Under the pieces are notes generated by a model. It did no database searches. It saw only the letters and a list, made by a program, of their open reading frames with translations, and was not told the DNA's origin. A program made the position numbers and the translations under genes. A stretch of 1,727 bases of DNA from Naegleria gruberi. Its lineage: Eukaryota. Below, one piece after another: positions 2-1,683 of the stretch. The number at the start of each line of letters is the position of its first letter. Positions within the stretch are counted from its first letter, which is position 1. The stretch lies in assembly GCA_000004985.1 (NCBI GenBank), contig GG739337.1; one strand, written 5' to 3'.

Positions 2-100
2 AGCAAATGTAAAATACGAAAGCAAACCCTGCAAGAATGGGAACCGAAATGGCATCCGGACATTGATGAGGAATGTTTCGTTGTCGAGGGACTAGAGTAA
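2..100 (+). CDS. Possible 3'-terminal coding segment of an upstream + strand gene (…SKCKIRKQTLQEWEPKWHPDIDEECFVVEGLE*). The strand and reality are uncertain.
   Basis: Frame 2 is open from the window edge to TAA at 98-100. Local GC is higher (~50%) than the flanks. The plus strand is purine-rich. A T-rich UTR-like sequence follows. The antisense frame is also open (114→1, MVTFPYSSPSTTKHSSSMSGCHF…), so the strand call is weak. Confidence 0.25.
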   Translation, partial: SKCKIRKQTLQEWEPKWHPDIDEECFVVEGLE

Positions 101-317
101 GGGAAAGTAACCATGGTTCGCATTCTGTTGCATTGCTATTGTTTATAATTGTATTATTGGTTTGTTGCCTTGTAGAATTGATTTCGTATATTGTTTCTAA
201 TAATTTGCTTGCAAGTTGATTCGTCATTCAAGAGATGTTGTCGTATTTTATTTTATTAATGAAGTTCAGGAGGTCACTGATAGACGGTGGGCAGTACCAT
301 GTATTCGTTGTTCCAAC

Positions 318-347
318 CAAATTTTTTTAGAGTCGAGCCAATTTTAT
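318..347 (-). repeat. Solitary inverted copy of the repeat-unit core (minus strand reads AATTGGCTCGACTCTAAAAAAATTTG)
   Basis: The reverse complement of 333-341 is GGCTCGACT, which matches the array core 9/9. The flanking A/T tract is arranged like the unit tail. About 20/24 positions match the unit. Confidence 0.5.
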
Positions 348-404
348 AAATATTTTAATATTATTTATTCTTCTGATGATATTTCGTCGCCACTTTATTC
401 ATCA

Positions 405-518
405 CTTCCACTTTGTGGATTCTGATGCATCATCTTCCTCATATTCTGATCCGCTGGTAGTATCGTCTTGGTAAATTCTTGGAAAGCTTTTGGAGTTTAT
501 GGTTTGATGGTTGGTATT
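405..518 (-). CDS. Possible 3'-terminal exon of a minus-strand gene (…NTNHQTINSKSFPEIYQDDTTSGSEYEEDDASESTKWK*), with a poly(A) signal immediately downstream
   Basis: The minus strand is purine-rich here. The frame is open from 518 down to 405. The stop TGA is at 404..402. A canonical AATAAA on the minus strand lies at 399..394 and a second at 369..364. The tail is acidic and looks like a real C-terminus. An alternative overlapping minus frame, 636..442, is also open. Confidence 0.2.
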
Positions 519-786
519 TCATCATCAACAGGATTTCCTCTTTTTGTTGCCAATTTCTTGGTTTCTTTGTTGTTGGAGATTTAGATGTAAGAAGAAGATT
601 CCAGTCAAAGAAACTTCCTGATGATGGGTTGTTGTATTAATTTTCTAGCCAACTGCCATGTTGTTCAGTTGCTTCCAAATACCAGCTTGTGATTGGACAT
701 TGTGGCCAGTAGACAAAACCTCTTAATTTTTTTAAATTTTAATTTAACGGTTTTTATCAGCCGAATTGTCAAAAGCAACGGATCTT

Positions 787-986
787 CTGTGGCTCGACTT
801 TGAAATTTTTTTGTCTGACCCGGCTCGACTTGTAAAAATTTTTGTCTGACCCGGCTTGACTTGTAAATTTTTTAGCCTGACCCGGCTCGACTTGGAAATT
901 TCGCAAGTTCTGCATAAAATGCCTCTGACTCGACTTTGAAATTTTTACTCCCTGACCCGGCATTTTACATCACTGACCACCGTCTA
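787..986. repeat. Tandem minisatellite-like array of about six contiguous 28-31-bp units. The consensus is CTGACCCGGCTCGACTTGTAAAAATTTTTGT. The array degenerates at both ends. Unit 4 carries a ~23-nt insertion (902-924).
   Basis: The units are 787-814, 815-845, 846-876, 877-924, 925-951 and 952-986. Each has a GC-rich head (CTGACCCGGCTCGACTT) and an AT-rich tail (GTAAAAATTTTT). The units abut with no spacers. Confidence 0.85.
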
Positions 987-987
987 G

Positions 988-1301
988 TCACTGAAAAATT
1001 CATTCAATCTTTGCAAGTTATTCGAAATGAAACTATTGAGCAAGCTAAACAGCAAATTGAAGTGGAGAGACAAGAATTGGAAATGGAAAAGAAAGAATGG
1101 GAAATGGAAAAGGAAAGATTATTGAAAATGAATCCAATTCAAGATGAAATTGTTTATTTAGATGTTGGCGGGAAAGTGTTTACAACAAGTATTCAAACTT
1201 TAAAGAATAGTTATCCAATTCCTGGATTGGAAAGTGAATTGCAAGGTAATTTCTTTACCAGTATGGTATTCAATTCTGGAAGGTTTTCTTTATTAAACGA
1301 A
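988..1301 (+). CDS. BTB/POZ (T1/KCTD-type, BTB_2) domain protein, 5' coding segment: coiled-coil lead-in followed by the first half of the T1 domain. The 5' boundary is uncertain.
   Basis: Frame 0 is open from 918 to 1301. The sense strand is purine-rich. The translation '...IEQAKQQIEVERQELEMEKKEWEMEKERLLKMNPIQDEIVYLDVGGKVFTTSIQTLKNSYP...FTSMVFNSGRFSLLNE' contains the T1/BTB_2 hallmarks ('LNVGG'-like 'LDVGG', 'MFSGRF'-like 'VFNSGRF'). The first in-frame ATG is at 1083. Position 936 is TTG, not ATG. Candidate acceptors are AG at 986-987 and 1015-1016. The exon may instead be joined to an upstream exon with the real start. The segment ends at an in-frame TGA (1302-1304) that interrupts the domain. 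Confidence 0.55.
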
Positions 1302-1302
1302 T

Positions 1303-1636
1303 GAGGGAAGAATTTTCATTGATAGAGATGGTCAACTCTTTGAATATATTATGGAATACTTGAGGAATGGTGAAATTCTATTGGATGATAACTTGCCAGA
1401 GCATCAAATATTGAAAAAGAAGATTCTGAGAGAGGCCATGTTTTATCGAATGGAAGATTTGATTATTTATCTGAGTGGAGATTCATCACAGCTTGATTCG
1501 AATAACTTGAAAATTGTGGAAGTGAACCAACAATTCAAGTATGTGAGTGATTTTGATGAGAATGGGTTGTTTTATTGGATTGGAAAGAAGCATTCTCAAA
1601 GAACAAAGAAAGATTCTTGGTCAAATCCGTATGAAG
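1303..1636 (+). CDS. Continuation of the same BTB/POZ T1-domain protein in the +1 frame: second half of the T1 domain plus a C-terminal region. Its reading frame is only restored after a 1-nt shift, so the gene is frameshifted (pseudogene or indel).
   Basis: Frame 1 is open from 1297 to 1641 and reads 'TNEGRIFIDRDGQLFEYIMEYLRNGEILLDDNLPEHQILKKKILREAMFYRMEDLIIYL...'. This matches the T1 consensus 'E.G.yFIDRDg..F..IL.YLR.G.l'. It ends at the donor GAAG|GTAAGTG at 1636/1637. Confidence 0.6.
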
Positions 1637-1683
1637 GTAAGTGAAAATTAACAATTTGTAAAAACTTCAAATTCTTCTTGCAG
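1637..1683 (+). other. Spliceosomal intron, 47 nt, phase 1
   Basis: The donor is GTAAGTG (1637-1643). The tail is pyrimidine-rich and the acceptor is TTCTTCTTGCAG (1672-1683). The 47-nt length is the modal short-intron size in Caenorhabditis. The reading frame continues without stops after splicing (…NPYEG|AGLVNIITDANYYCV). Confidence 0.55.

What the first reader, a model, noticed from the sequence alone, without database searches (positions are those of the whole stretch)
281..986. Inverted solitary repeat copy plus flanking 14-bp inverted repeat suggest a ~700-bp MITE-like insertion
An inverted copy of the unit core (GGCTCGACT + A/T tract) lies at 318-347, about 440 bp upstream of the direct array. 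The whole block is bracketed by TAGACGGTGGGCAG (281-294) and its near-perfect reverse complement CTGACCACCGTCTA (973-986), which match 13/14. An 8-mer GTCACTGA is directly repeated at 273-280 and 987-994. Subterminal repeat arrays with inverted terminal copies are typical of non-autonomous DNA transposons of the hAT, Mutator or CACTA type. The chance expectation for the 14-mer inverted repeat alone in this window is roughly 0.2, so it is suggestive but not conclusive.
Basis: partly seen in the sequence, partly recalled or inferred. Interest (0 to 1): 0.5.

Follow-up and report, generated by a model that had tools for sequence, protein, structure and literature searches.

The report
hAT-like MITE interrupting a Naegleria gene
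The 706-bp block is a real, probably recent insertion of a small non-coding "cut-and-paste" DNA transposon (most likely hAT-type) into the coding sequence of a BTB-domain gene of the amoeba Naegleria, which is an ordinary kind of event but here unusually well documented.

Summary
The terminal inverted repeat extends to 15 nt (281-295 / 972-986, 14/15) and is flanked directly by a perfect 8-bp direct repeat, GTCACTGA (273-280 / 987-994). The inverted repeat alone is near chance (0.3 per shuffle). Together with the adjacent 8-bp repeat it appeared in 0 of 2000 shuffles, and in 3 of 1500 under a very loose definition. The array's core motif GGCTCGACT also sits in mirrored positions, 35 and 36 nt inside the two TIRs (p about 1e-5).

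The decisive evidence is an empty site at the protein level. Naegleria gruberi protein XP_002681424.1 reads NEVQEVTAKFIQSLQ... without a break. On the window it splits into two matches that both cover the V-T of the duplicated target. With the element and one repeat copy removed, it aligns as one match (83/92 identical, E = 8e-57). The element therefore interrupts a coding exon of a BTB_2 (KCTD-like) gene.

It has no coding capacity. The 8-bp duplication, short TIR starting TAG and subterminal repeats favour hAT, exclude CACTA and disfavour Mutator. Copy number and the autonomous partner could not be tested, because no Naegleria DNA was reachable. This is a new member of a known kind, of low to moderate interest.

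The parts
273..280 (.). Left copy of the 8-bp target-site duplication, GTCACTGA. It encodes V-T and the first two bases of the next codon in the host frame.
   Evidence: Identical to 987-994. P0010 residues 44-45 (VT) align to both copies.
281..295 (.). Left terminal inverted repeat, TAGACGGTGGGCAGT
   Evidence: 14/15 complementary to 972-986 (pair I10). The inverted match drops to 0/8 immediately outside.
316..340 (-). Left subterminal motif: a single inverted copy of the array core (AGTCGAGCC, 331-339) with its A/T tract, 35 nt inside the TIR
   Evidence: pairs I1, I2, I15; mirrored position, p about 1e-5
341..790 (.). AT-rich internal region (34% GC) with no coding capacity
   Evidence: The longest stop-free stretch in the element is 68 codons. 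Six-frame Pfam scan found nothing relevant. No similar protein was found among 5.8 billion. No Rfam family or tRNA.
791..901 (+). Right subterminal array: 3.6 tandem units of 31 bp, each [GGCTCGACTT][A/T tract][CTGACCC]. These are the putative transposase-binding sites.
   Evidence: TRF score 166, 86% matches. Units shown in register.
927..958 (+). Degenerate fifth unit (GACTCGACTT...CTGACCC). Its core ends 36 nt inside the right TIR.
   Evidence: (D3)
972..986 (.). Right terminal inverted repeat, ACTGACCACCGTCTA
987..994 (.). Right copy of the 8-bp target-site duplication, GTCACTGA
231..280 (+). Host coding sequence to the left of the insertion (...RDVVVFYFINEVQEVT)
   Evidence: tblastn with P0010 residues 30-45
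987..1636 (+). Host coding sequence to the right of the insertion: a coiled-coil segment and a BTB_2 domain (about 1149-1461). A 1-nt frameshift lies in the AAA run at 1295-1297.
   Evidence: P0010 residues 44-121 align at 96% identity to 987-1220. PF02214 BTB_2, E = 1.1e-11. Frameshift shown.

Best explanation
Positions 281-986 are one copy of a non-autonomous, MITE-like class II DNA transposon, most probably of the hAT superfamily. It inserted into a coding exon of a BTB_2 (KCTD-like) gene in Naegleria gruberi or a very close relative.

Inferred mechanism. A transposase supplied in trans by an autonomous relative recognises the 15-bp TIRs and the subterminal GGCTCGACT(T)-A/T-tract-CTGACCC motifs. 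There are five direct copies at one end, spaced 31 bp apart (about three helical turns), and one inverted copy at the other end. The transposase cuts the element out and pastes it into a target cut with an 8-bp stagger. Repair of the stagger produced the GTCACTGA duplication.

Consequence for the host. The host reading frame runs into the element and stops at 423-425 (...EVQEVTDRRWAVPC...PLCGF*), so this gene copy is knocked out unless the element is removed from the transcript.

What is shown: the TIR, TSD and mirrored-motif anatomy, the lack of coding capacity, and the fact that this is an insertion into sequence that is contiguous and coding in a homologue. What is inferred: the superfamily, trans-mobilisation, and the transposase-binding role of the repeats.
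For: - Anatomy: 14/15 TIR directly flanked by a perfect 8-bp direct repeat.
- Chance: 0 of 2000 shuffles gave this structure, and 3 of 1500 under a loose definition.
- Mirrored core motif, 35 and 36 nt inside the TIRs, p about 1e-5.
- 31-bp subterminal array.
- No coding capacity.
- Protein-level empty site. XP_002681424.1 (P0010, N. gruberi) splits into two matches on the window, both containing V-T. It aligns as a single match (83/92 identical, E = 8e-57) once the element and one TSD copy are removed.
- hAT criteria from the literature: 8-bp TSD and TIRs of 5-27 bp. The Drosophila MITEs Mar (610 bp, 11-bp TIR) and Vege (884 bp, 12-bp TIR) were assigned to hAT on exactly these grounds (PMC3517528). 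Subterminal repeats serve as transposase-binding sites, and the bona fide hAT element TCUP has a TIR with one mismatch (PMC3355664). hAT elements 'usually generate 8 bp TSDs' (PMC12730594).
- The terminus TAG... fits the first three positions of the hAT YARNG motif (own knowledge).
Against: - No second copy and no autonomous partner were found, so membership of a repeat family is untested.
- No remnant of a hAT transposase lies inside the element. An hATC-like resemblance I saw by eye on the minus strand was not supported by Pfam or by solved structures.
- The fifth base of the terminus is C, not the G of YARNG.
- The single TSD matches only one of the two fixed positions of the Ac-type target consensus nTnnnnAn, and neither of the Buster-type nnnTAnnn.
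- Other superfamilies also make 8-bp duplications: P, Merlin, some MULEs and Novosib (own knowledge), and Zisupton (PMC12730594).
- P0010 is a computational gene model and could be a paralogue rather than the allele. The empty site is shown at protein level only, not at nucleotide level.
Confidence: 0.72

Rival explanations
1. It is a genuine TIR transposon insertion, but from another superfamily that makes 8-bp duplications: P, Merlin, a short-TIR MULE, Zisupton or Novosib, rather than hAT.
For: Superfamily assignment here rests only on TSD length, TIR length and three terminal bases. No transposase homology is available. Zisupton also generates 8-bp TSDs (PMC12730594). Most N. gruberi repeats are unclassified (PMC12344493).
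Against: By my own knowledge of these families, P elements have 31-bp TIRs starting CATG, Merlin TIRs start GG and are longer, and MULEs usually give 9-11 bp TSDs with longer TIRs. TAG...CTA termini, a 15-bp TIR and asymmetric subterminal repeats are the classic hAT pattern (PMC3517528, PMC3355664).
Confidence: 0.2
2. It is an introner-like element. The insertion sits in an exon but is removed from the mRNA as a new intron, using the acceptor ...CCACCGTCTAG| formed by the last base of the element and the first G of the TSD, so the gene stays functional.
For: The element lies in coding sequence. The insertion is 714 nt, which is 3 x 238. The element end plus the TSD forms a pyrimidine-rich CTAG acceptor at 987. 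In-frame GT...AG pairs exist, from donors at 301, 307 or 310 to the acceptor at 987. Introners arise from many TE superfamilies (PMC12130899).
Against: The candidate donors (GTATTC, GTTGTT, GTTCCA) are weak compared with the window's own intron (GTAAGT...TTGCAG, 1637-1683). No splice pair removes the element precisely. Every in-frame option leaves extra residues or deletes host ones. The gene also carries a frameshift at 1295-1297, which suggests a decaying copy. No RNA data were available.
Confidence: 0.05
3. It is a Tc1/mariner-type (Stowaway-like) MITE with a TA target duplication, parsed as TA|GACGGTGGGCAGT...ACTGACCACCGTC|TA.
For: The outermost two bases of each TIR are TA, which is its own reverse complement. 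They could therefore be read as a duplicated TA target.
Against: This parse leaves the perfect 8-bp direct repeat just outside unexplained (3.3e-5 by chance). The homologue P0010 contains V-T once, whereas both copies are present in the window, so the 8 bp really were duplicated by the insertion.
Confidence: 0.02
4. There is no insertion. The inverted and direct repeats are coincidental, or the homologue lost this segment by deletion between the 8-bp direct repeats.
For: The inverted repeat alone is expected about 0.3 times per window of this composition. Deletion between short direct repeats is a known process.
Against: The joint structure was seen in 0 of 2000 shuffles and the mirrored subterminal motif adds about 1e-5. 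The 706 bp carry in-frame stops and have no homology to the protein family, so they cannot be ancestral coding sequence. A deletion would not explain why inverted repeats abut the direct repeats exactly.
Confidence: 0.01

Closest known systems
hAT-superfamily MITEs such as Mar (610 bp, 11-bp TIR) and Vege (884 bp, 12-bp TIR) of Drosophila willistoni (PMC3517528)
   Same: Size of several hundred bp, AT-rich non-coding interior, short imperfect TIR starting YAG, 8-bp target-site duplication, and location in or near genes.
   Different: No sequence similarity. The host is a heterolobosean amoeba. This element has a conspicuous 31-bp tandem subterminal array at one end only. For Mar a relic full-length hAT partner is known, whereas none is known here.
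Ac/Ds and TCUP of maize: hAT elements with subterminal transposase-binding repeats (PMC3355664)
   Same: 8-bp TSD. TIR of 11-15 bp that tolerates one mismatch. Short motifs repeated in direct and inverted orientation in the subterminal few hundred bp, asymmetric between the two ends. Ds-type non-autonomous derivatives insert into exons.
   Different: The repeated motif here is longer (a 9-10 bp core within a 31-bp unit, against hexamers) and is arranged as a regular tandem array rather than scattered copies. The transposase is unknown.
Introner elements: TIR- and TSD-bearing transposons that create introns (PMC12130899)
   Same: A non-autonomous DNA transposon sitting inside protein-coding sequence of a protist gene. 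The element end plus the TSD creates an AG acceptor.
   Different: There is no good donor and no precise splice pair. There is no evidence of splicing or of many genic copies. The host gene looks damaged by a frameshift.

Membership tests
hAT superfamily (class II DNA transposons) | 8-bp target-site duplication | tested here: met
   GTCACTGA at 273-280 and 987-994, 8/8 and exactly 8 bp. The duplication is confirmed by the single V-T in homologue P0010.
hAT superfamily (class II DNA transposons) | Short terminal inverted repeats (5-27 bp; PMC3517528) | tested here: met
   15 bp, 14/15
hAT superfamily (class II DNA transposons) | Terminal motif YARNG (own knowledge of the family) | tested here: inconclusive
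   The terminus is TAGAC, so positions 1-4 fit and position 5 is C rather than G.
hAT superfamily (class II DNA transposons) | Target preference nTnnnnAn (Ac family) or nnnTAnnn (Buster family) | tested here: inconclusive
   The single TSD GTCACTGA has T at position 2 but G at position 7, and no central TA. One site cannot define a consensus.
hAT superfamily (class II DNA transposons) | Subterminal short repeats that bind the transposase | tested here: met
   The repeats are present and mirrored at both ends. Their binding function was not tested.
hAT superfamily (class II DNA transposons) | Autonomous partner with the same termini that encodes a hAT transposase (BED finger, DDE domain, hATC domain) | not testable with these tools
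The element itself holds no transposase remnant, as expected for a non-autonomous copy.
[quoted passage not shown] | Small size, TIRs, TSD and no coding capacity | tested here: met
   706 bp. The longest stop-free stretch is 68 codons and there are no family hits.
[quoted passage not shown] | Multiple homogeneous copies in the genome | not testable with these tools
   Scans of the viral, metagenome and prokaryote collections gave only chance matches. None of these collections contains the Naegleria genome.
CACTA / EnSpm | 3-bp TSD and CACTA...TAGTG termini | tested here: not met
   The TSD is 8 bp and the termini are TAGAC...GTCTA.
Mutator-like elements (MULE) | 9-11 bp TSD, usually with long TIRs | tested here: not met
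   The TSD is exactly 8 bp and the TIR is 15 bp. Rare 8-bp MULEs are not excluded.
Tc1/mariner (Stowaway-like MITEs) | TA target-site duplication | tested here: not met
   A TA parse is formally possible, but the 8 bp outside it are duplicated and occur once in the homologue.
Introner elements | The element is excised from the mRNA as a spliceosomal intron with consistent splice sites | tested here: inconclusive
   Only weak donors and no precise splice pair. No transcript data.

The most novel reading that the evidence does not exclude
The element is a member of a currently or recently active hAT-type MITE family in Naegleria that has not been described. Its insertions into coding exons are polymorphic between gene copies or strains, and it may be tolerated because the CTAG| acceptor formed by the element end plus the TSD lets it be spliced out, as with introners. 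This would give a traceable, active DNA transposon, and a possible source of new introns, in a discoban lineage where most repeats are still unclassified.
Probability: 0.1. Interest if true: 0.5.

Novelty: new member of a known kind. Interest (0 to 1): 0.25.

Why it matters
In itself this is a routine transposon insertion. Three points give it modest value.

1. It is a clean case with a perfect target duplication, a near-perfect TIR and a homologue that lacks the insertion, which points to recent DNA-transposon activity in Naegleria. Only a small fraction of that genome's repeats can be classified (PMC12344493), and I found no report of hAT elements or MITEs there.
2. Its termini (TAGACGGTGG) and subterminal motif (GGCTCGACTT...CTGACCC) are ready-made probes for finding the whole family and its autonomous transposase.
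3. It disrupts the coding exon of a member of the BTB/KCTD-like gene family. That bears on annotation, since this copy is probably a pseudogene, and on how gene-family members are inactivated.

Tried and rejected
1. hATC remnant. On the minus strand (about 560-700) I saw by eye a resemblance to the hAT dimerisation domain. Pfam gave no hit and solved structures gave only unrelated weak matches, so I dropped it.
2. Exact look-ups of nine ORF variants from the window in the protein and contig collections found none on record.
3. DNA pattern scans for further copies:
   - Unit junction CTGACCCGGCTYGACTT(NNAAA) in the viral and metagenome collections.
   - End signature CTCGACT-N25-50-ACTGNCCACCGTCTA in the viral and prokaryote-genome collections.
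   - TIR alone in the viral collection.
   All hits share only the pattern itself. Most are in GC-rich contigs, and none has a paired TIR with a TSD. These are chance matches.
4. The concatenated six-frame translation of the element, searched against 5.8 billion proteins to catch spurious ORFs called on other copies, gave no hits at E of 10 or below.
5. Giant-virus origin. No relative of the host protein exists in the viral collection.
6. The idea that the upstream ORF (2-97) is an earlier exon of the same gene, as in the UBL-coiled coil-BTB architecture of P0001. Neither BLASTP nor a profile comparison extends homology left of about nt 1030, and P0010's N-terminus does not match it. This is unsupported. 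Many GT...AG models are possible.
7. The contig of the nearest metagenomic homologue (L012) comes from a different eukaryote and has no related element.
8. Splicing-out models gave only weak donors.
9. Rfam and tRNA scans found nothing relevant.
10. Retrieving the N. gruberi locus of P0010 failed because the gene is not on record.

Full report

- The inverted repeat extends to 15 nt: TAGACGGTGGGCAGT at 281-295 against the reverse complement of 972-986, 14/15.
- GTCACTGA occurs at 273-280 and again at 987-994, touching the inverted repeats on their outer sides.
- A 31-bp tandem array lies at 791-901 (3.6 copies, 86% matches), followed by a degenerate fifth unit at 927-958.
- A single inverted copy of the array core, AGTCGAGCC, lies at 331-339.

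**Is it more than chance?**

- The inverted repeat alone is not. Dinucleotide-preserving shuffles give 0.305 such pairs per window, and 17% of shuffles have at least one.
- The joint structure is. An inverted repeat of this quality directly flanked by a perfect direct repeat of 7 bp or more occurred in 0 of 2000 shuffles. The analytic estimate is 0.3 x 3.3e-5, about 1e-5.
- A deliberately loose definition still makes it rare. Counting any inverted repeat of 11 nt or more with at most one mismatch, plus an adjacent direct repeat of 8 bp or more, gave 3 of 1500 shuffles.
- The boundaries are sharp. The inverted match is 0/8 outside the TIR, and the direct repeat is exactly 8 bp.
- The two ends mirror each other. 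The core motif starts 35 nt inside the left TIR, in inverted orientation. The innermost right-hand core ends 36 nt inside the right TIR. The chance of an exact 9-mer at that mirrored position is about 1e-5, independent of the points above.

**What the element contains.**

- It is 706 bp, 37.5% GC overall and 34% GC in the interior.
- The longest stop-free stretch in any frame is 68 codons.
- Six-frame translations hit no relevant Pfam family, and no similar protein exists among 5.8 billion sequences. There is no Rfam family or tRNA.
- A resemblance to the hAT dimerisation domain that I saw by eye on the minus strand was not supported by Pfam or by solved structures, and I withdraw it.
- The element is therefore non-autonomous.
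- The right end consists of units of the form [GGCTCGACTT][12-13 nt A/T tract][CTGACCC]. CTGACC occurs five times there, the last copy inside the TIR itself. The left end has one inverted core and no GGTCAG. Asymmetric ends of this kind are typical of hAT elements.

**Host context and the empty site.**

- To the right of the element lies a gene with a coiled-coil segment and a BTB_2 domain (PF02214, E = 1.1e-11).
- The first protein search gave only distant relatives, 37% identical at best. Their homology begins at about nt 1030. That is upstream of the first in-frame ATG at 1081 and only about 40 nt from the element. This already placed the element inside the transcription unit.
- The last protein search used the sequence spanning the insertion site. 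It found P0010, which is XP_002681424.1 / NAEGRDRAFT_63461, 'predicted protein [Naegleria gruberi]'.
- P0010 reads ...RGLVSNNFENEVQEVTAKFIQSLQVIRNETIEQAKQQ...VYLDVGGKLFTTSIQTLKN...
- On the real window it aligns in two pieces. Residues 30-45 match nt 231-278. Residues 44-121 match nt 987-1220, with 75 of 78 residues identical. Residues 44-45 (V-T) are matched by both pieces, which is the target-site duplication seen in protein space.
- On a reconstruction with the element and one copy of the 8-mer removed, it aligns as one uninterrupted match: residues 30-121, 83 of 92 identical, E = 8e-57.
It shows three things. The window comes from N. gruberi or a very close relative. The insertion point lies in coding sequence. 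The 706 bp plus 8 bp are an insertion relative to a homologous gene copy.
- In the window the host frame reads into the element and terminates at 423-425 (...EVQEVTDRRWAVPC...PLCGF*).

**Classification.**

- An 8-bp duplication, a 15-bp TIR starting TAG and subterminal repeats are the criteria by which non-coding elements are assigned to hAT. PMC3517528 gives 8-bp TSDs and 5-27 bp TIRs, and places Mar and Vege in hAT on those grounds. PMC3355664 describes subterminal repeats as transposase-binding sites and a TIR with one mismatch in TCUP. PMC12730594 states that hAT elements usually generate 8-bp TSDs.
- CACTA is excluded, since it has a 3-bp TSD and CACTA termini.
- Mutator is disfavoured, since it usually has a 9-11 bp TSD.
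- A Tc1/mariner reading with a TA duplication is formally possible, because the outermost two bases of each TIR are TA. It leaves the duplicated 8-mer unexplained.
- Other superfamilies with 8-bp duplications cannot be excluded without the transposase. These are P, Merlin, Novosib and rare MULEs (own knowledge), and Zisupton (PMC12730594). I put hAT at about 0.7-0.75 and the others together at about 0.2.

**Mechanism.**

- Inferred: a transposase from an autonomous relative binds the TIRs and the subterminal motifs. The 31-bp spacing, about three helical turns, would place the sites on one face of the helix. The transposase excises the element and integrates it at a target cut with an 8-bp stagger, and gap repair yields the duplication.
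- The perfect TSD, the near-perfect TIR and 96% amino-acid identity of the flanking gene to a copy that lacks the insertion all suggest a recent event.

**Could it be spliced out?**

- The insertion is 714 nt (3 x 238). The last base of the element plus the first G of the TSD forms a CTAG| acceptor at 987.
- The only in-frame donors are weak (GTATTC at 301, GTTGTT at 307, GTTCCA at 310). The window's own intron at 1637-1683 has GTAAGT...TTGCAG.
- No splice pair removes the element precisely.
- The gene also has a 1-nt frameshift in the BTB domain, in the AAA run at 1295-1297. This suggests either a decaying copy or a sequencing error.
- An introner-like role (PMC12130899) is therefore possible but unlikely, at about 0.05.

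**What could not be done.**

- No Naegleria genomic DNA was reachable, because P0010's gene is not on record.
- Pattern scans of the viral, metagenome and prokaryote collections returned only chance matches.
- Copy number, the variety of TSDs across copies and the autonomous partner therefore remain untested.
- The literature held here has no report of hAT elements or MITEs in Naegleria. It notes that only a small fraction of N. gruberi repeats can be classified (PMC12344493).

**Verdict.** It is a new member of a known kind, of low to moderate interest.

Noticed in passing
window 1284-1312 (AAA run at 1295-1297): There is a 1-nt frameshift inside the BTB domain of the host gene. The homologous sequence continues in another frame (...SGRFSLL | NEGRIFIDRDG...), and deleting one A restores a continuous domain. 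It is either a real pseudogenising mutation or a homopolymer sequencing error.
   Followed up: partly
window 1220-1240 versus P0010 residues 121-127: The N. gruberi model XP_002681424.1 ends ...YPILDWKVN. This matches the window in a different frame (1222-1239, frame +1) from the rest of the alignment (frame +3). The reference copy therefore has its own 1-nt indel relative to the window at about 1221, and its 127-aa model is truncated within the BTB domain. Both copies may be pseudogenes, or the reference model may be wrong.
   Followed up: partly
window 2-97 (+): The window opens with the end of an ORF (...KQTLQEWEPKWHPDIDEECFVVEGLE*) whose stop overlaps a consensus splice donor (GA|GTAAGG at 97). 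It has no Pfam hit and matches neither P0010 nor P0001-P0003, so I cannot tell whether it is the 3' end of a neighbouring gene or an upstream exon.
   Followed up: partly
window 1072-1118: A 21-bp tandem repeat (2.2 copies, 92% matches) lies inside the coding sequence and encodes the duplicated peptide EMEKKEW / EMEKERL in the coiled-coil segment. It is conserved in P0010.
   Followed up: no
window 1637-1683: A probable 47-nt spliceosomal intron (GTAAGT...TTCTTGCAG) follows ...SWSNPYE, and the frame continues as AGLVNIITDANYYCV to the end of the window. The domain C-terminal to BTB (FDENGLFYWIGKK...) had no detectable homologue in the searches I ran.
   Followed up: no
The first protein search used a query that contained the whole region shared with P0010 (90-96% identical), yet it did not return P0010. 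A shorter query did. The word-index prefilter of that tool can therefore miss close relatives, so a negative result from it should be treated with caution.
   Followed up: no
window 1215-1270 (-): A weak Rfam match to the mir-1545 precursor (22 bits against a gathering score of 78, E = 0.066). I treat it as chance.
   Followed up: no
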